Made by a program: the position numbers and the translations under genes
Shown: in pieces, positions 8,622 to 14,358 of the stretch
How positions within the stretch are numbered: position 1 is the stretch's first letter
How the letters are laid out: each line of letters starts with the position of its first letter
The notes under the pieces: generated by a model
The model's database searches: none
Told to the model about the DNA's origin: nothing
The model's input: only the letters and a program-made list of their open reading frames with translations
Assembly (NCBI GenBank): GCA_028281825.1
Contig: JANQJC010000006.1
Location: 10,076 to 74,075 of the forward strand
Source of the DNA: Flavobacteriales bacterium
GTDB taxonomy: Bacteria > Bacteroidota > Bacteroidia > JANQJC01
DNA: 64,000 bases
Reading direction: 5' to 3'

Positions 8622-9035
8622 TCACAAATCCTTAATCTCTGGAAATAAGTTCTTTGCATACCTATGTATTTCCATAATTTGATGCTTCGATATAGAATCA
8701 ATTGATTCAAGAGACTTCTCTATATAAAAGAAACAACTTTCACTGTTCACCATTCTTAAGAGTAACATACTTGCCCAATTCGGGCTCTTTTGAAAAAGGC
8801 TATACAAACGGTTTTTCATTAAAGAATTAACATATTTCTCATCTTCAATTGCTTCAACGGTATGTATAATCGAGAACATTACTTCTTCATATTCATAATT
8901 GTCTTCTAGGAACTCAATCAAACTAATAATTTGCTCTTCATCACCACCCTCATATATTGAAGCAAGAGCCAACTCTGCTAAGTCTAGATCCATCTTATCT
9001 AATCCATTCCTTAATTGCTTAAAATAATCCCCCAC
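8622..9035 (-). CDS. Hypothetical acidic helical protein (orphan)
   Basis: 137-aa ORF with no recognisable catalytic motif. Sits alone in an AT-rich stretch with ~300 bp of non-coding flank on each side. Resembles small immunity-type proteins only in general composition. Confidence 0.35.
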   Translation of the reverse strand: MGDYFKQLRNGLDKMDLDLAELALASIYEGGDEEQIISLIEFLEDNYEYEEVMFSIIHTVEAIEDEKYVNSLMKNRLYSLFQKSPNWASMLLLRMVNSESCFFYIEKSLESIDSISKHQIMEIHRYAKNLFPEIKDL

Positions 9036-9334
9036 ACTAATTGATTTTACGAGTTAGCTTCTAATTCTACTTTGATTGGCTAATTTACTTTTTCGATGAA
9101 TACAATACCTCTCATTGAGAGGAAGCGCTGAGGTTAAGGTGTAAGCGCAGGAATACTAACATCGTAGCTCCTAACTTTTGTTACTTATCTTCTCTCTTCT
9201 TTCACCTGACTCCCGATTTCTATTTTTTTTACTTTTTGTCTATTTTCGAGTAAATTTCTTTAAACAAGTTGCCCCAATCTGTTGTTAAAGCAGTAAAAAA
9301 TAATTAAAACCATAGTTATACGTTAATTTTTATC

Positions 9335-10246
9335 ATGAATGGTGATTATTCTATTAAGGACTTGGAAAAGCTTTCGGGCATCAAAGCTCACACTATTAGG
9401 ATATGGGAAAAGCGTTACAATATTATCCACCCTCAGCGCACTGACAGCAACTATCGTTACTATTGCGATACTGAGCTTAAGAAGCTCCTGAACATTGCGG
9501 TGCTCAATAATAATGGCTATAAAATCTCTCACATAGCCAAATTATCAGAGGACGATATCAATCAGGCATTACTAAGGGTAGCTGAAGCAGATACCAACTA
9601 CCAAACACAAATAGATAGTTTGGTGATAGCCATGGTAGACCTGGATAGAAATAAATTTGAGAGAATATTTAACCATAATATACTCAAGTTTGGCTTTGAA
9701 GATACCTTCCTGCATATTATATACCCACTATTGATGAAAGTGGGTGTGATGTGGCAAACCAGCAAGATTGACCCCTGTCAGGAACATTTCTTATCCAATC
9801 TCATTCGCCAAAAATTAATAGTGGCTATTGATGGGCAATACAAACCCCACCCCAAATACGATAAAGCTTTTTTGTTTTTCTTGCCTGAAGGTGAATTGCA
9901 TGAGCTTGGCCTATTATTCCACACCTACATGGTGAAGAAATATGGTTTTAGGGCTATATACCTGGGGCAAAGCGTTCCGTATGAAGACTTAATCGCCGTC
10001 TACGAAAAGCATAAACCTGACTACATGTTAACTGCTTTTGTTACTCCATGCGGCTCAGAAAAAATAACCAATTATCTTACCGGTTTATCCAAAGAATGCC
10101 CTGAAACAACTATCTATATCACTGGCTCCCAGGCATGCCAATGCACCTCGAATTTGCCCGAAAATGTCAAAACCCTGAGAACTGCAGAAGATTTCAAAGC
10201 CGAAATGAAGAATCTGGGAGCTCAATTCGAGCTTGAAAAGGTGTAA
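9335..10246 (+). CDS. MerR-family transcriptional regulator with C-terminal cobalamin-binding domain (LitR/CarH-like light-responsive regulator)
   Basis: N-terminal MerR HTH (IKDLEKLSGIKAHTIRIWEKRYNII...YRYY). C-terminal region has the ExHxxG B12-binding motif (PEGELHELGLL) followed by a Rossmann-like segment. Confidence 0.6.
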   Translation: MNGDYSIKDLEKLSGIKAHTIRIWEKRYNIIHPQRTDSNYRYYCDTELKKLLNIAVLNNNGYKISHIAKLSEDDINQALLRVAEADTNYQTQIDSLVIAMVDLDRNKFERIFNHNILKFGFEDTFLHIIYPLLMKVGVMWQTSKIDPCQEHFLSNLIRQKLIVAIDGQYKPHPKYDKAFLFFLPEGELHELGLLFHTYMVKKYGFRAIYLGQSVPYEDLIAVYEKHKPDYMLTAFVTPCGSEKITNYLTGLSKECPETTIYITGSQACQCTSNLPENVKTLRTAEDFKAEMKNLGAQFELEKV

Positions 10247-10264
10247 TAACCAGTTTTTTCTTTT

Positions 10265-10414
10265 GTTTAAACTTTACGTATTTGTTAATAAACGTTAATG
10301 TTTATTTACAATGTGCTGTATATCAGTGATTTATGTATTATAGTCATATTTTGTTTAAACTTTTTCTTGGTAGTTTAAACAATTTGTTTAATTTTGACGT
10401 TAAGAAGTTTAAAC
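10265..10414 (+). promoter_or_regulatory. Array of four perfect GTTTAAAC palindromes in the regulator-to-sigma-factor intergenic region (candidate operator/promoter elements)
   Basis: GTTTAAAC at 10265-10272, 10353-10360, 10373-10380 and 10407-10414. A GTTTAAT variant at 10386-10392. A CTTTAAAC variant upstream of the regulator at 9258-9265. Confidence 0.45.
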
Positions 10415-10429
10415 AAAAAATTTACAGCC

Positions 10430-10942
10430 ATGACAACACTAGAATTCAACTACCATGTCATCAGCTTAAGAGAAAAACTAAAGTTCTTTGCACTTAAGTT
10501 AACCCAAAACGGAGATGACGCCGACGATTTACTTCAAGATACCATGCTTAAGGCAATGGTTAACCGCGATAAGTTTCAGGAGAAAACCAACCTGGCAGCG
10601 TGGTTGTATACTATAATGAAGAACACTTTTATCAATAACTATAGAAAAGCCGCAAAAGCCAATACTATTATTGATAATACCAAAGAGTTGTACTACCTCA
10701 ACATCCCTCAGTCTTCTGATAGTATATCACCAGAGTCAAGGCTCTCTGAGAAACAGATAAAAGAGCATATCAACTCATTAGATGACACCTACAAGGTTCC
10801 ATTCCAAATGCATTACGATGGCTACAAGTACAAAGAGATTGCTGACGAATTGGATATTCCAATAGGCACTGTTAAGAGCCGCATCTTTTTAGCTCGCAAA
10901 GAATTGATGGAGCTACTTAAAGATTACAAAAAGAGTGCTTAA
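10430..10942 (+). CDS. RNA polymerase ECF-type sigma-70 factor
   Basis: Region 2 (DDLLQDTMLKAMVNRDKFQEKTNLAAWLYTIMKNTFINNYRK). Region 4 HTH (IADELDIPIGTVKSRIFLARKEL). The ATG at 10430 is preferred over 10394. Confidence 0.8.
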   Translation: MTTLEFNYHVISLREKLKFFALKLTQNGDDADDLLQDTMLKAMVNRDKFQEKTNLAAWLYTIMKNTFINNYRKAAKANTIIDNTKELYYLNIPQSSDSISPESRLSEKQIKEHINSLDDTYKVPFQMHYDGYKYKEIADELDIPIGTVKSRIFLARKELMELLKDYKKSA

Positions 10943-10945
10943 AGA

Positions 10946-12262
10946 ATGCAGCCGCTCAATATCTTTTGGTTCAGGCGAGACCTGAGGCTCAATGATAATT
11001 GCGGCCTTTACAAGGCACTTAAAGAAAGTGAACCGGTATTAGCTGTTTTCATTTTCGATACCAATATTTTATCCCAGCTTGAAGATAAGAACGACGGGAG
11101 GGTGGATTTTATCCACTCTTCTGTTTCTCAGCTCAAAACCGAGCTGGAAAAACGCGGCTCATCACTTTTGATTGAGGTAGGCAAACCCCAAGAAGTTTAT
11201 CAGAAACTATTTGATGAATACAACATCAAAGCCATCTACACCAATCATGATTATGAACCATATGCACAAAAAAGGGATGATGAAATAAAAGCACTTGCCC
11301 AAAACAAAGGTGCTCAATTCTTCACCTTCAAAGATCAGGTTATATTTGAAAAAGATGAAGTGTTAAAGCCCAATGGTGAGCCTTATACCGTTTACACACC
11401 TTATATGAAGATGTGGAAACAGAAGTTAACCGAGAAAGGAACTAAGTCTTTTGACACTACTCCACTTCTAAACAATTTCTTTAATGCCCAACCCTTTGCA
11501 CTTCCCACCATTGAAGATATTGGTTTTGAGAAAACAGGTGTGACTATCCCACCCACCAACGCTTCAATTGACTTATTAGAAAACTATAAACAAACGCGCG
11601 ACTACCCCGCAACCAAAGGCACTAGTAAACTAAGCGTTCACCTAAGGTTTGGTACCATTAGTATTCGTCAGTTGGTAAAAAAAGCACTCGAAGCCAGTGA
11701 TACTTTCCTCAATGAATTGATTTGGCGCGAGTTTTACATGATGATACTCTGGCACTTTCCGCATGTGATTGACGGTGCCTTTAAACCTCAATACAATCAC
11801 ATTCAATGGAGAAACAACGAACAAGAATTCAAAGCTTGGTGTGAAGGCAAAACGGGCATTCCCATCGTTGATGCTGGTATGCGAGAATTGAACAAAACAG
11901 GTTATATGCACAATCGCGTAAGGATGATTGTAGCCAGCTTCCTGACCAAAAACTTACTCATTGACTGGCGTTGGGGTGAAGCATACTTCGCAAAAAAGTT
12001 ACTGGATTTTGAGTTGGCATCAAATAATGGCGGTTGGCAATGGGCCGCAGGAACTGGTTGCGACGCCGCACCTTACTTCAGGGTCTTCAACCCTACCCTG
12101 CAAACACAAAAATTTGACCCAGAAGGAAAATACATCAAAAAGTGGGTGCCAGAGTTGAATAGCCTGGAATACCCGCAACCTATAGTTGATTTATCATCGT
12201 CCAGAAAAAGGGCTTTGCAAGTGTATAAGGAGGCATTATCCGATGAAGGTGTTCACGCTTAG
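10946..12262 (+). CDS. Photolyase/cryptochrome family FAD-binding protein (deoxyribodipyrimidine photolyase or CRY-DASH)
   Basis: N-terminal photolyase alpha/beta domain (IFWFRRDLRLNDNCGLYKAL). C-terminal FAD-binding motifs (WREFY, GYMHNRVRMIVASFLTKNL, ASNNGGWQWAAG). Starts 3 nt after the sigma factor stop. Confidence 0.85.
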   Translation: MQPLNIFWFRRDLRLNDNCGLYKALKESEPVLAVFIFDTNILSQLEDKNDGRVDFIHSSVSQLKTELEKRGSSLLIEVGKPQEVYQKLFDEYNIKAIYTNHDYEPYAQKRDDEIKALAQNKGAQFFTFKDQVIFEKDEVLKPNGEPYTVYTPYMKMWKQKLTEKGTKSFDTTPLLNNFFNAQPFALPTIEDIGFEKTGVTIPPTNASIDLLENYKQTRDYPATKGTSKLSVHLRFGTISIRQLVKKALEASDTFLNELIWREFYMMILWHFPHVIDGAFKPQYNHIQWRNNEQEFKAWCEGKTGIPIVDAGMRELNKTGYMHNRVRMIVASFLTKNLLIDWRWGEAYFAKKLLDFELASNNGGWQWAAGTGCDAAPYFRVFNPTLQTQKFDPEGKYIKKWVPELNSLEYPQPIVDLSSSRKRALQVYKEALSDEGVHA

Positions 12263-12710
12263 CAGAGAGCTTTTTATTCCCACAAGTATTGAAAAAGCCT
12301 GGGAATTCTTCTCTTCTCCTGATAACCTCGGGAAAATTACCCCCTCTTATATGGGCTTTAAAATTCTTTCACCCACCAATAGAGAGAACATCCGTACAGG
12401 CATGGAAATAGTTTATAAGGTAAAGCCTGTATTGAACATTCCACTCACCTGGGTAACGGTAATTGACCGAGTAGACGCACCCTACTCATTTGTTGATACT
12501 CAAAAAAAGGGGCCTTACAAAATTTGGTGGCACTCCCATCAATTTGTACCTACGGAGGGTGGCGTATTAATGAAGGATACTGTAAATTATGTCTTACCTT
12601 TAGGCTGGCTTGGCATAATCATGCATTCTCTTTTTGTGAAAAAGCAATTGAAAAACATATTTGATTATCGAAAAAAAGCCGTTCATCGCATCTTTAACAG
12701 TAATGTATGA
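12243..12710 (+). CDS. SRPBCC (START/Bet v1-like, polyketide cyclase-like) family protein
   Basis: MKVFTLSRELFIPTSIEKAWEFFSSPDNL... is a typical SRPBCC N-terminus. Overlaps the photolyase 3' end by 20 nt. Confidence 0.6.
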   Translation: MKVFTLSRELFIPTSIEKAWEFFSSPDNLGKITPSYMGFKILSPTNRENIRTGMEIVYKVKPVLNIPLTWVTVIDRVDAPYSFVDTQKKGPYKIWWHSHQFVPTEGGVLMKDTVNYVLPLGWLGIIMHSLFVKKQLKNIFDYRKKAVHRIFNSNV

Positions 12711-13630
12711 AACAAGTACTTCTACTCTTTTTATGTATGCTCACTCTCGGGCTTTCGGCACAGCAAATACCCAACAATTCATTCGAGTCATGGACACCTG
12801 AACTAGGTGGCACCTATGAAGAACCAGGTGGCAATTGGTGGGCTACCCTTAACTTTCTCAGGGGCTTTGGCTCTAGTGCACCCATTTCTGTGAAGAAAAC
12901 CACCGATGCACAATTGGGCCAATTCGCAGCAGAAATAAGCACGGGCACTTTCGGCTCATTCACCATTCCCGGACTGCTCGTTTCAGGAACGGTAGGTCAG
13001 ATTGATTTGGGCAACCCAACAGACGTGATTGAAAGGGGACAACCATTTACCGCAACACCCGATAAAATCTCAGGTTATTATAAATACACCCCCGTCAATG
13101 GTGACTCCGCCGTAGTGAATGCCATGCTCACCAAGTTCAATACAGGTACCAACAAAAGGGATACCGTCGCCTTTGCAGAGCAATTGTTTTACTCCAATGT
13201 CACTACCTATACCCCTTTTGAGGCCACCTTCAATTACGACATGCCCAATGTAACCCCTGATACCATCATTATTGTGCTGGTATCCAGTGCTGGTGCGCAG
13301 TCTTTGGCTGGCCAGCCCGGCAGCACCTTTTTTGTCGACAACCTATCCTTAAGCTACATTCAAGGCATAGAAATGGATGTCTTCAATGCCATCACAGTTA
13401 ATGCATATCCCAACCCAGCTATAGACAGGATCGTTTTCTCCACCGCAAAACCATCAGGTTCCAGAAGCATTACTTTATATGACCAATTGGGTAGAAATTG
13501 CTTATCCTTGCCCTTTCAATCAACCAATATTGAAATAGATATAAGTTCACTAGCCAAAGGAAAATACCTTTTCGCAGTGCAAGAAAGAGACAAAACCATT
13601 TCAACCGGAACTATCATTAAATCCCAATAA
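12707..13630 (+). CDS. Secreted T9SS cargo protein (type A C-terminal sorting domain)
   Basis: Signal peptide. C-terminus ...AYPNPAIDRIVFS...KGKYLFAVQERDKTISTGTIIKSQ (Por_Secre_tail-like). Start ATGA overlaps the SRPBCC stop. Confidence 0.65.
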   Translation: MKQVLLLFLCMLTLGLSAQQIPNNSFESWTPELGGTYEEPGGNWWATLNFLRGFGSSAPISVKKTTDAQLGQFAAEISTGTFGSFTIPGLLVSGTVGQIDLGNPTDVIERGQPFTATPDKISGYYKYTPVNGDSAVVNAMLTKFNTGTNKRDTVAFAEQLFYSNVTTYTPFEATFNYDMPNVTPDTIIIVLVSSAGAQSLAGQPGSTFFVDNLSLSYIQGIEMDVFNAITVNAYPNPAIDRIVFSTAKPSGSRSITLYDQLGRNCLSLPFQSTNIEIDISSLAKGKYLFAVQERDKTISTGTIIKSQ

Positions 13631-14358
13631 TGGCCAAAAATATCAGCATCTTTTTCCTGGCTTTATTGTTTGGCTTCGCTACCTATGGGCAAAACATTGA
13701 TTTGGGCATCATGGGTGGCATCAATTATGGTGGCCCTATCGGCAAGGTAGACAGCGCTGAAGGTAGCCCACTTGCTAAATTTGAGGCCGGGCTTTTGTCT
13801 TCCATTAAGCTATCTGACCGATGGTATTTCAAACCTTCACTATACTTTACCCAAAAAGGCGCTGAGTATAGCCAATCTTACAGACGAGACACCATAGTTG
13901 AGATTGAGATAGCTGGAATAAAAGGTGAAATACCTACCTTTTACAGGGCAAGTGTAAGCGGTGACGTGTTAGGTCAGTATCTGGAGTTTCCATTGGCAAT
14001 ATCCTATCGCAACAAAAAAGGCTTTTTCGTTGATTTAGGGCCGTATCTATCATTCCTACTCTCAAGCAAAGACCAAGGTCACCTCAGGCTTGATATTGGC
14101 GAAGACGGCTTTATCACTGACGAAAGTAATTTTGTATACACCAAAGCCCTCAACACTTTTGAATACGGTGCTGTGTTTGCTGGTGGCTACCAGTTCAATT
14201 TTGGTTTGGGATTATACATCAAAGGCACACGTAGCTTCTCTAAGCTATACAGAAGCTCCCACTTCGAGAAACTTCAACAAACTGAAGTGAAGCTATACAA
14301 TACTATCGTATCATTTGGTTTACAATATTCTCTCGTAAAGTTTAAGACAGAAAGCTAG
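13630..14358 (+). CDS. Outer-membrane beta-barrel protein (porin-family-like)
   Basis: Signal peptide MAKNISIFFLALLFGFATYGQ. Alternating amphipathic beta-strand pattern. Start overlaps the preceding stop (TAATG). Confidence 0.55.
   Translation: MAKNISIFFLALLFGFATYGQNIDLGIMGGINYGGPIGKVDSAEGSPLAKFEAGLLSSIKLSDRWYFKPSLYFTQKGAEYSQSYRRDTIVEIEIAGIKGEIPTFYRASVSGDVLGQYLEFPLAISYRNKKGFFVDLGPYLSFLLSSKDQGHLRLDIGEDGFITDESNFVYTKALNTFEYGAVFAGGYQFNFGLGLYIKGTRSFSKLYRSSHFEKLQQTEVKLYNTIVSFGLQYSLVKFKTES

What the first reader, a model, noticed from the sequence alone, without database searches (positions are those of the whole stretch)
10255..10430. Four perfect GTTTAAAC palindromes clustered in 150 bp upstream of the ECF sigma gene
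This 8-mer is the PmeI site and is a perfect palindrome. It occurs four times between 10265 and 10414, with a GTTTAAT variant and a CTTTAAAC variant upstream of the regulator gene itself (9258). An AT-rich 8-mer should occur only a few times in the whole 64 kb, so four copies in 150 bp is non-random. Two readings are possible. (a) They are operator half-sites for the adjacent MerR/B12 regulator, since MerR proteins bind palindromes. (b) They supply the AAC -35 element of an autoregulated ECF promoter. The copy at 10373-10380 sits 17 nt upstream of CGTT at 10398-10401, which matches the ECF consensus spacing AAC-N17-CGTT.
Basis: seen in the sequence. Interest (0 to 1): 0.5.

Follow-up and report, generated by a model that had tools for sequence, protein, structure and literature searches.

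The report
Light-sensor repressor sites at sigma promoter
The four GTTTAAAC copies are real and non-random, and are best read as binding sites for the neighbouring vitamin-B12 light-sensing repressor on the promoter of a sigma-factor/DNA-photolyase operon, a layout conserved across the phylum Bacteroidota.

Summary
GTTTAAAC occurs four times in 64 kb, all within 10265-10414.

The conserved element is not the 8-mer palindrome. It is the half-site TTGTTTAA / TTAAACAA, arranged as an inverted repeat, GTTTAA-N16(17)-TTAAAC.
- Across 80 LitR-anchored Bacteroidota loci the spacer peaks sharply at 16 nt.
- 44 of 53 litR-sigma intergenic regions carry such a unit within 130 nt of the sigma ATG.
- A Bacteroidetes sigma-A -7 box (TAnnTTTG) lies inside or overlaps the unit.
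- In one locus without the sigma gene, the same unit sits between litR and crtI-crtB.

The half-site core TAAACA fits the TnnACA core of known CarH/LitR operators. The arrangement differs: inverted, about 22 bp apart, rather than tandem 11-bp direct repeats.

Reading (a), an operator of the adjacent MerR/B12 regulator, is supported. Reading (b), an ECF AAC-N17-CGTT promoter, is not: CGTT is absent in all six closest relatives, and the pattern occurs in only 1 of 60 orthologous regions.

Verdict: a new variant of a known kind, namely a CarH/LitR operator controlling an ECF sigma operon, analogous to LitR-LitS in Streptomyces. Binding and light response are inferred, not shown.

The parts
9335..10246 (+). 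litR/carH-type gene: MerR winged-helix DNA-binding domain plus B12-binding domain (303 aa). It carries Wx9EH at residues 140-151 and ExHxxG at 187-192.
   Evidence: Pfam MerR_1, MerR and B12-binding_2. phmmer to Thermus CarH/LitR structures 5C8D and 3WHP, E 2e-20, over residues 2-224. Motifs found by regex; W140, E150, H151, E187 and H189 are invariant in 30 homologues.
9236..9267 (.). Weaker unit upstream of litR: TTGTCTAT-N14-TTAAACAA (hexamers GTCTAT 9238-9243 and TTAAAC 9260-9265, spacer 16). Probable autoregulatory site.
   Evidence: PWM score 15.9, second best in the window but borderline (1 of 20 shuffles reached 16.0). The right half TTAAACAA is invariant, and the left half is a better match (TTGTTTAT, TTGTTTAC or TTGTTTAA) in close relatives at the same 16-nt spacing (alignment A3).
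10263..10294 (.). Distal unit just after the litR stop codon: TTGTTTAA (10263-10270, includes GTTTAAAC copy 1), a 17-nt hexamer spacer, then ATAAACG (10288-10294).
   Evidence: Sequence. Both halves and the spacing are conserved in relatives L081-L085, whereas the palindromic extension AC is not (AACC or AAGG there).
10351..10382 (.). Proximal unit 1: site A TTGTTTAA (10351-10358; GTTTAAAC copy 2), a 16-nt hexamer spacer, then site B TTAAACAA (10375-10382; GTTTAAAC copy 3). It spans about -50 to -19 relative to the predicted start.
   Evidence: Exact GTTTAA-N16-TTAAAC. Best PWM hit in the window, 23.4 bits. Cores conserved in close relatives.
10384..10416 (.). It spans about -17 to +16.
   Evidence: Exact GTTTAA-N17-TTAAAC. 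It is positionally equivalent to the proximal unit found in 44 of 53 orthologous regions, and ends 15 nt before the ATG, the commonest distance being 14-15. Site D is GTTTAAACAAA in the five closest relatives (L081-L085) and CTTAAACAAA in L086, so the TTAAACAA core is kept in all six.
10366..10369 (+). Candidate -33 element (CTTG; consensus TTTG) of a Bacteroidetes sigma-A type promoter, 19 nt upstream of the -7 box.
   Evidence: Sequence. The aligned column reads CTTG or TTTG in relatives L081-L085. Assignment is inferred.
10389..10396 (+). Candidate -7 box TAATTTTG (consensus TAnnTTTG), overlapping site C. It predicts a transcription start near 10401.
   Evidence: TAnnTTTG is kept at this column in L081-L085 (TAATTTTG, TAGTTTTG or TAAATTTG) but not in L086. 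The box lies at unit position 4 in 9 loci and at position 14-15 in 18 loci. It is present in 47 of 60 regions against 3.7 expected. The box spans -12 to -5 in Flavobacterium TSS maps (PMC9723704).
10430..10942 (+). ECF-type sigma factor gene (170 aa, ATG start), with no adjacent anti-sigma gene.
   Evidence: Pfam Sigma70_r2 + Sigma70_r4_2. Orthologues (45-63% identity, aligned from residue 1 at an ATG) follow litR in 52 of 80 loci.
10946..12262 (+). Photolyase gene, starting 4 nt after the sigma stop codon and therefore presumably co-transcribed.
   Evidence: Pfam DNA_photolyase + FAD_binding_7. The same gene order is seen in L081-L085.
12249..12710 (+). SRPBCC/polyketide-cyclase-like gene overlapping the end of the photolyase gene; part of the same gene string.
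   Evidence: Weak Pfam Polyketide_cyc hit, below cut-off. Syntenic in L081-L085.

Best explanation
The cluster is a multi-site operator for the adjacent LitR/CarH-type AdoCbl photoreceptor-repressor. It lies over the sigma-A type promoter of the ECF sigma-photolyase operon.

The recognition element is the half-site TTGTTTAA (core TGTTTA = TAAACA on the other strand). It is arranged as inverted pairs, GTTTAA-N16/17-TTAAAC, about two helical turns centre to centre.

The window has two adjacent pairs, sites A-D at 10351-10416, spanning roughly -50 to +16. They cover the -33 element, the -7 box and the start site. There is a third pair at 10263-10294 and a weaker one upstream of litR.

Proposed mechanism (inferred):
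- In the dark, AdoCbl-bound LitR oligomers occupy these sites on one face of the DNA and block RNA polymerase.
- Light photolyses AdoCbl, the oligomer falls apart, and the promoter opens.
- The cell then makes the sigma factor and, on the same transcript, photolyase. In other Bacteroidota the same transcript carries crtI-crtB.

That three of the four sites read as the perfect palindrome GTTTAAAC is a peculiarity of this genome.

Shown: the motif, its spacing, its conservation, its position relative to the genes and to a conserved -7 box, and the protein's family signatures. Inferred: that LitR is the binder, the sign of regulation, the oligomeric state and the light response.
For: 1. Non-random cluster.
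2. In 52 orthologous litR-sigma intergenic regions TAAACA is the commonest hexamer (190 occurrences). Its overlapping neighbour GTTTAA occurs 169 times against about 25 expected from shuffles. The half-site logo is tttTGTTTAAy.
3. The GTTTAA-to-TTAAAC spacer peaks at 16 nt (43 cases, against 2 at 15 and 6 at 17). 38 of 51 exact units lie in litR-sigma intergenic DNA, which is 1.9% of the 804 kb examined. Most of the rest lie next to litR.
4. 44 of 53 regions have a proximal unit within 130 nt of the sigma ATG.
5. Background control: 0 such N16 pairs in 814 kb of unrelated metagenome DNA with the same hexamer density.
6. The motif follows litR, not the sigma. In L076 a perfect unit lies between litR and crtI-crtB-idi with no sigma gene. 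Units also precede litR in L019, L029, L043, L058 and L079.
7. Promoter overlap: a conserved TAnnTTTG lies inside or overlaps the unit.
8. The protein has the CarH-defining features.
9. Precedents from the literature. CarH domains recognise nnnnTnnACAn repeats that overlap -35 or -10 elements (PMC9304148; PMC8156234). Class II LitR binds two TGTACA-N12-TGTACA sites, one at -35 and one downstream of the start (PMC9758184). In Streptomyces, LitR represses the promoter of the ECF sigma gene litS in the dark (PMC11519972).
Against: - There is no binding, expression or start-site data for this or any Bacteroidota LitR; none was found in the searchable literature.
- All comparative loci were collected by anchoring on LitR, so the association is shown by position within loci, not by an unbiased genome-wide scan. 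My one reverse scan used the wrong spacer.
- The arrangement (inverted, about 22 bp) differs from every experimentally mapped class I CarH operator (tandem direct 11-bp repeats).
- The A at position 2 of the fuller consensus nAnnTnnACAn is not matched.
- The -33 element is only CTTG.
- 9 of 53 syntenic loci lack a unit with one mismatch or fewer near the ATG.
- In Streptomyces LitR may also activate in the light, so the sign of regulation is uncertain.
Confidence: 0.75

Rival explanations
1. Autoregulated ECF promoter. GTTTAAAC supplies an AAC -35 element and CGTT at 10398 is the -10 element, so the sigma factor transcribes its own gene.
For: AAC-N17-CGTT is present in the window. A looser AAC-N16-18-(CGT|GTC) occurs in 9 of 60 regions against 2.6 by chance, but four of these nine (L081-L084) are close relatives of the window, itself a fifth, so they are not independent.
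Against: - CGTT is not conserved in any of the six closest relatives.
- The strict pattern occurs in 1 of 60 regions, and AAC-N16-18-CGT in 2 of 60 against 1.3 expected.
- The repeated element is dyad-symmetric with a fixed spacer, which a sigma factor has no reason to require.
- In L068, L080, L025, L060 and L070 the right half-site ends 1-3 nt before the ATG, so it cannot be a -10 element upstream of a start site.
- The same unit occurs next to litR without any sigma gene (L076).
- Four to five copies in one region is not a promoter property.
Confidence: 0.05
2. The sites are bound by a different dimeric transcription factor, not LitR, that co-regulates the light or carotenoid locus.
For: No direct evidence identifies the binder. 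In Thermus a second regulator (the CRP/FNR-type LdrP) acts at light-inducible promoters (cited in PMC7064467).
Against: - litR is the only gene constantly adjacent to the motif across Flavobacteriales, Cytophagales, Bacteroidales and Chitinophagales loci.
- The half-site contains the TnnACA core typical of CarH/LitR domains.
- The LitR DNA-binding domain is nearly invariant across these loci, matching a phylum-wide invariant motif.
Confidence: 0.1
3. The inverted repeats act at the RNA level. In a litR read-through transcript they would form hairpins that attenuate transcription or control translation of the sigma gene.
For: The 186-nt intergenic RNA folds at -39.5 kcal/mol, z = -3.9 against shuffles, pairing site 1 with site D and site A with site B. 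No intrinsic terminator is predicted between litR and the sigma gene in the window.
Against: - Sequence is conserved rather than pairing. Of 30 units with a change in one half, 24 break the pair; only 3 of 10 double changes are compensatory.
- A 6-8 bp A/U stem with a fixed 16-nt loop is weak.
- The -7 box lies inside the units, so the left halves would not be in the sigma transcript.
- There is no Rfam match.
- Any array of inverted DNA sites gives a low folding energy.
Confidence: 0.05
4. LitR binds these sites but acts mainly as a light-dependent activator (MerR-style promoter remodelling) rather than as a dark repressor.
For: Sites B and C lie in the -33/-7 spacer, the classic MerR position. 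For Streptomyces it is proposed that photolysed LitR-B12 activates the litS promoter (PMC11519972).
Against: - Characterised class I CarH proteins lose DNA binding in the light (PMC9304148; PMC8156234).
- Sites also cover the start site and +9 to +16, which fits occlusion.
- The 19-nt -33/-7 spacer is not obviously abnormal.
Confidence: 0.1

Closest known systems
Class I CarH/LitR operators (Thermus thermophilus, Bacillus megaterium, Myxococcales)
   Same: The regulator has the same architecture and signature motifs: a MerR-type domain, Wx9EH and ExHxxG. The half-site core TAAACA fits TnnACA. There are several sites in helical register (about 22, 33 or 44 bp apart) overlapping core promoter elements of a primary-sigma promoter. 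The sites sit next to the regulator gene and next to carotenoid or photolyase genes.
   Different: Known operators are 3-4 tandem direct 11-bp repeats. Here the sites are inverted pairs with a fixed 16-nt hexamer spacer, and two to three pairs are spread over 66-150 bp. The A at position 2 of nAnnTnnACAn is not matched. The promoter is of the Bacteroidetes -33/-7 type.
Class II LitR operators of Pseudomonas (PplR1/PmlR2): T(G/A)TACA-N12-TGTA(C/T)A
   Same: The unit consists of two hexamers at a fixed spacing, and the hexamer contains TnnACA. There are two units per promoter, one over the -35 region and one between the start site and the start codon, giving a long footprint (-45 to +32). The regulon includes photolyase.
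   Different: The hexamer sequence differs (TGTACA against GTTTAA/TTAAAC) and so does the spacer (12 against 16). The Pseudomonas regulator lacks B12 binding and is controlled by a LOV protein. The protein here has the class I B12 motifs.
Streptomyces LitR-LitS cascade
   Same: A B12-dependent LitR sits next to an ECF sigma gene whose promoter it controls. The sigma has no adjacent anti-sigma and is regulated transcriptionally. The output is photoprotection (carotenoids).
   Different: In Streptomyces litR and litS are divergent, with bidirectional promoters, and the crt genes are separate sigma-LitS targets. Here litR and the sigma gene are in tandem, and the photoprotective genes (photolyase here; crtI-crtB in 25 of 52 related loci) are fused to the sigma transcript. 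Orthology between the two sigma factors was not tested.
Classical MerR-family operators
   Same: A winged-helix MerR-type domain, dyad symmetry, and sites within the promoter spacer.
   Different: From my own knowledge, not tested here: MerR dimers bind one compact palindrome with half-sites about 11-13 bp apart inside a 19-20 bp -35/-10 spacer. Here the half-sites are about 22 bp apart, there are several units, and the protein lacks the MerR coiled-coil effector domain.

Membership tests
CarH/LitR class I (AdoCbl-dependent photoreceptor-repressor), protein | N-terminal MerR-type winged-helix DNA-binding domain | tested here: met
   Pfam MerR_1 1.7e-16 and MerR 4.1e-11, residues 5-71.
CarH/LitR class I (AdoCbl-dependent photoreceptor-repressor), protein | Wx9EH motif capping the adenosyl group | tested here: met
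   WQTSKIDPCQEH at residues 140-151. W140, E150 and H151 are invariant in 30 homologues. The motif aligns to the Thermus motif. Definition from PMC8156234.
CarH/LitR class I (AdoCbl-dependent photoreceptor-repressor), protein | B12-binding motif ExHx2Gx41SxV/Tx22-27GG | tested here: inconclusive
   ELHELG at 187-192 is present and conserved. The distal part is degenerate: TAF at 233-235 in place of SxV/T, and GS at 264-265 in place of GG. Pfam finds B12-binding_2 but not PF02310 in this protein.
CarH/LitR class I (AdoCbl-dependent photoreceptor-repressor), protein | Sequence homology to experimentally characterised CarH | tested here: met
   phmmer E 2e-20 to 5C8D and 3WHP over both domains. 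NCBIfam CarH equivalog model scores 95.5 bits, far below its 400-bit cut-off, so this is a homologue and not an equivalog.
CarH/LitR class I (AdoCbl-dependent photoreceptor-repressor), protein | AdoCbl-dependent oligomerisation and DNA binding in the dark, lost in the light | not testable with these tools
   Requires biochemistry.
CarH-type operator (DNA) | Half-site with TnnACA core | tested here: met
   TAAACA at all sites. It is the commonest hexamer in 52 orthologous regions (190 occurrences), and its overlapping neighbour GTTTAA occurs 169 times against about 25 expected. Consensus from PMC9304148.
CarH-type operator (DNA) | Three or four tandem direct repeats with an 11-bp period | tested here: not met
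   The sites are inverted pairs with a 16-nt spacer between hexamers (43 of 51 exact units). There is no peak at 11-bp direct spacing.
CarH-type operator (DNA) | Overlap with core promoter elements of a primary-sigma promoter | tested here: met
   A conserved TAnnTTTG lies inside or overlaps the proximal unit. The promoter itself is predicted, not mapped.
Autoregulated ECF promoter | Conserved -35 (..AAC) and -10 (CGT..) elements at 16-17 nt spacing upstream of the sigma gene in orthologues | tested here: not met
   AAC-N17-CGTT occurs in 1 of 60 regions and AAC-N16-18-CGT in 2 of 60 against 1.3 by chance. CGTT is absent in all six closest relatives.
Bacteroidetes sigma-A promoter (-33 TTTG / -7 TAnnTTTG) | TAnnTTTG box a short distance upstream of the gene | tested here: met
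   TAATTTTG at 10389-10396, conserved in L081-L085 but not in L086. Present in 47 of 60 regions against 3.7 by chance. Consensus and position from PMC9723704.
Bacteroidetes sigma-A promoter (-33 TTTG / -7 TAnnTTTG) | -33 TTTG about 19-20 nt upstream of the -7 box | tested here: inconclusive
   CTTG at 10366-10369 with a 19-nt spacer. Relatives have CTTG or TTTG in the same column. This is a 3-of-4 match only.
LitR-LitS type cascade | B12-type LitR adjacent to, and controlling, an ECF sigma gene | tested here: inconclusive
   Adjacency holds in 52 of 80 loci, and the operator-like sites lie on the sigma promoter. Control itself, and orthology of the sigma to LitS, were not tested.

The most novel reading that the evidence does not exclude
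Bacteroidota CarH/LitR photoreceptors use an operator grammar different from every mapped CarH operator. It consists of inverted TTGTTTAA half-sites exactly two helical turns apart, used singly, doubled (33 or 44 bp apart) or as distant pairs 90-180 bp apart. This would imply a different placement of the DNA-binding domains on the B12-bound oligomer, with a two-fold-symmetric dimer per unit and possibly looping between units. This one switch would drive a phylum-wide, anti-sigma-less ECF sigma operon fused to photolyase or carotenoid genes. I found no description of such a two-tier light response in the searchable literature.
Probability: 0.45. Interest if true: 0.6.

Novelty: new variant of a known kind. 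Interest (0 to 1): 0.45.

Why it matters
If LitR binds these sites, the result gives a precise, testable operator model for B12-dependent light sensing in Bacteroidota: half-site, spacing, position on a -33/-7 promoter, and a PWM. Bacteroidota is a dominant phylum in oceans, soils and sediments, and I found no experimental work on this system there.

It would show that CarH-family proteins are not restricted to tandem direct repeats, which bears on how the tetramer presents its DNA-binding domains.

It would also define a compact light switch (litR + operator + Bacteroidetes promoter) that could be used for optogenetic control in Bacteroidetes, as LitR-LitS has been in Streptomyces.

Finally, it allows the light regulon to be predicted in thousands of genomes by motif scanning.

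Tried and rejected
1. Reverse test by pattern scan of metagenome contigs. I mis-specified the spacer, writing TTTGTTTAA-N14-TTAAACAAA instead of N16. The 120 loci returned (L088-L207) are unrelated: 0 have LitR or the sigma nearby, and 23 are simply longer hairpins. None of the 80 LitR loci contains the N14 pattern. I used those loci only as a background control (0 N16 pairs in 814 kb).
2. The perfect palindrome GTTTAAAC as the functional unit: rejected. It is present in only 6 of the 52 distant orthologous regions and is conserved at only one of the four positions in close relatives.
3. ECF AAC-N17-CGTT promoter: rejected.
4. Left half-site as the -33 element for the -7 box inside the unit: rejected, because the spacing is only 12-13 nt.
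5. Known RNA element or riboswitch in the intergenic region: no Rfam match at E <= 1.
6. E. coli-type sigma-70 promoter and intrinsic terminator scan: nothing above chance, and no terminator between litR and the sigma gene.
7. Other sites in the 64 kb window: a PWM scan finds only the litR-upstream and sigma-upstream units above background.
8. Source organism: the exact LitR sequence is in the protein collection (P0001) but has no contig on record. The best genome-collection relative is only 55% identical.
9. Literature searches for a Bacteroidota LitR/CarH operator or a LitR-ECF system found nothing. The Jost et al. 2015 structure paper is not held.
10. ECF target promoter downstream of the sigma gene: not recoverable, because crtI or photolyase follows the sigma gene with gaps of 2-27 nt in most loci.
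Full report
**Observation**

The intergenic region between a MerR/B12-binding regulator gene (9335-10246) and an ECF sigma gene (ATG 10430) contains all four GTTTAAAC copies of the 64 kb window, at 10265, 10353, 10373 and 10407.

Four copies in the whole window is only mildly above expectation (1.95 expected; 8 of 100 shuffles reach four). Their confinement to 150 bp is not chance.
- About 0.003-0.004 copies are expected per 150 bp.
- None of 200,000 shuffles of the 22% G+C intergenic region itself gave three or more.
- No other 8-mer family in the window shows four non-overlapping copies within 150 bp.

**What the repeated element really is**

Flanks show that each copy is oriented:
- TTGTTTAAAC at 10263 and 10351;
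- GTTTAAACAA at 10373 and 10407;
- TTGTTTAAT at 10384.

I collected 80 Bacteroidota loci encoding LitR homologues of 45-55% identity, from Flavobacteriales, Cytophagales, Bacteroidales and Chitinophagales. In 52 of them an orthologous ECF sigma gene (45-63% identity, aligned from residue 1 at an ATG) follows litR, as in the window.

The perfect 8-mer palindrome is rare in those intergenic regions: 6 of 52. The half GTTTAA/TTAAAC is present three to six times in most.
- TAAACA is the commonest hexamer there (190 occurrences).
- Its overlapping neighbour GTTTAA occurs 169 times against about 25 expected.
- The oriented logo is tttTGTTTAAy.

The spacing between GTTTAA and a downstream TTAAAC has a single sharp peak at 16 nt (43 cases; 2 at 15, 6 at 17). 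A secondary peak corresponds to two units 44 bp apart.

Of 51 exact units in 804 kb, 38 lie in litR-sigma intergenic DNA, which is 1.9% of the sequence. Most others lie immediately beside litR. As a background control, 814 kb of unrelated metagenome DNA with the same density of the two hexamers contains no N16 pair.

Of the 53 syntenic regions, 44 have a unit with at most one mismatch within 130 nt of the sigma ATG. The consensus is tTTtTGTTTAAtttT...TTAAACAAaa, ending most often 14-15 nt before the ATG.

**Layout in the window**

- Sites A and B: TTGTTTAA at 10351-10358 and TTAAACAA at 10375-10382, hexamer spacer 16.
- Sites C and D: TTGTTTAA at 10384-10391 and TTAAACAA at 10409-10416, spacer 17.
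- A distal unit at 10263-10294 (GTTTAA-N17-ATAAAC).
- A weaker unit upstream of litR at 9236-9267 (GTCTAT-N16-TTAAAC).

**Close relatives**

Six metagenomic contigs with LitR 61-85% identical were examined. Five of them, L081-L085, keep the sigma-photolyase-SRPBCC-PCMD-OMP gene order; in L086 a RecJ-like gene follows sigma.

In alignment A2 the TTGTTTAA/TTAAACAA cores are conserved at every site. The extra bases that make the 8-mer palindromic are conserved only at site D. At the other three positions they read AACC, AAGG, AATG and so on.

The same alignment shows a conserved TAnnTTTG at 10389-10396 and CTTG/TTTG at 10366-10369. It shows no conservation of CGTT at 10398 (TCTT, CCTT, TGTC, GTCT or AGTC in L081-L085, and none in L086).

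The unit upstream of litR is also conserved, with a better left half in the relatives (A3).

**Promoter context**

TAnnTTTG is the -7 box of the Bacteroidetes primary sigma factor and spans -12 to -5 in Flavobacterium start-site maps (PMC9723704).
- It occurs in the last 80 nt of 47 of 60 orthologous regions, against 3.7 by chance.
- It sits at fixed positions in the unit: position 14-15 in 18 loci, just before the right half-site, or position 4 in 9 loci including the window, overlapping the left half-site.

For the window this predicts a start near 10401. That places site A at about -50 to -43, B at -26 to -19, C at -17 to -10 and D at +9 to +16. These positions are inferred; no start site has been mapped.

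**Who binds**

The regulator is a class I CarH/LitR homologue.
- It has a MerR winged-helix domain and a B12-binding domain.
- It has Wx9EH (140-151) and ExHxxG (187-192), which are invariant among homologues.
- It matches the Thermus CarH structures at E 2e-20.
- It scores well below the NCBIfam equivalog cut-off, and the distal part of the B12 motif is degenerate.

CarH DNA-binding domains recognise 11-bp repeats nnnnTnnACAn that overlap -35 or -10 elements (PMC9304148; PMC8156234). TAAACA fits TnnACA.

The motif tracks litR rather than the sigma gene.
- In L076 (Ohtaekwangia) a perfect unit lies between litR and crtI-crtB-idi, with no sigma gene.
- Several loci carry units upstream of litR.

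In 25 of 52 syntenic loci crtI-crtB follow the sigma gene with gaps of 2-27 nt. The controlled promoter therefore drives sigma plus photoprotective genes as one operon. In the window lineage the fused gene is photolyase.

**Mechanism proposed**

In the dark, AdoCbl-LitR oligomers occupy the half-sites, which lie about 22, 33 or 44 bp apart and so on one face of the helix, and occlude the -33/-7 promoter and start site. Light photolyses the cofactor, the oligomer dissociates, and the operon is transcribed.

This copies the established CarH mechanism and the LitR-LitS logic of Streptomyces (PMC11519972). The closest operator grammar is that of Pseudomonas class II LitR: two TGTACA-N12-TGTACA units, one at -35 and one downstream of the start (PMC9758184).

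The difference from mapped class I operators is real. The sites are inverted pairs two turns apart, not tandem direct repeats. A two-fold-symmetric dimer per unit would explain this, but that is speculation.

**Rivals**

- ECF autoregulation fails on conservation, on symmetry, and on geometry: the right half-site ends 1-3 nt before the ATG in five loci.
- An RNA-structure role is suggested by a low folding energy (z = -3.9). However, 24 of 30 one-sided changes break the putative pairs, the -7 box lies inside the units, and there is no Rfam match.
- A different binding protein cannot be excluded without biochemistry.
- Activation rather than repression also remains possible.

**Limits**

All comparative loci were found through LitR, so the evidence is positional enrichment within loci. 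My reverse scan of metagenomes used a wrong spacer (N14 instead of N16) and is uninformative except as a background control. No experimental data exist for this system in the literature I could search.

**Verdict**

This is a genuine, conserved regulatory element. Reading (a) is supported in corrected form and reading (b) is not. It is a new variant of a known kind and of moderate interest.

Noticed in passing
window 10316-10326: The palindrome CTGTATATCAG (CTG-N5-CAG) lies between the distal and proximal site arrays. The CTG...CAG arms are kept in 3 of the 5 closest relatives, with one arm changed in each of the other two (TTG...CAG in L085, CTG...CAA in L084). No function is assigned.
   Followed up: no
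window 9280-9293: CTGTTGTTAAAGCA, between the litR-upstream unit and the litR start, is nearly invariant in close relatives. It contains GTTAAA, one mismatch from the half-site. It may be a further LitR site or part of the litR promoter.
   Followed up: no
L007-L013, L033 (Algoriphagus and relatives), first 40 nt after the litR stop: A TTAAACAAA half-site sits directly after the litR stop codon and immediately 5' of a GC-rich hairpin with a T-run (the likely litR terminator). The window has a site in the same position (10263-10270) but no predicted terminator.
   Followed up: partly
window 10430-14358; L081-L085: The genes for sigma, photolyase, an SRPBCC-like protein, a PCMD/T9SS-sorting-domain protein and an outer-membrane beta-barrel protein form a gap-free, same-strand string that is syntenic in close relatives. 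The last two genes may therefore also be light-controlled.
   Followed up: partly
L087 3509-7053: In this relative the sigma gene is followed by NUDIX, PTPS (6-pyruvoyl-tetrahydropterin synthase) and GTP cyclohydrolase I genes, then photolyase. This suggests co-regulated supply of a pterin/folate antenna cofactor.
   Followed up: no
L039 3380, L059 3311/3400, L063 3280: In Carboxylicivirga/Saccharicrinis, units lie upstream of a lipoprotein gene that precedes litR and has three matched stretches of the fasciclin domain. There is no sigma gene nearby, so the operon layout for the same motif is different.
   Followed up: partly
L006, L022, L003 (Bacteroidales MAGs): Besides the promoter-proximal unit, a second exact unit lies about 150-200 bp further upstream in the same intergenic region. 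This is compatible with looping between distant units.
   Followed up: no
window 8622-9035 (-): A gene with an Imm30 immunity-protein domain lies directly upstream of litR on the opposite strand. It is absent from that position in relatives L082-L086, so the litR upstream neighbourhood is variable.
   Followed up: no
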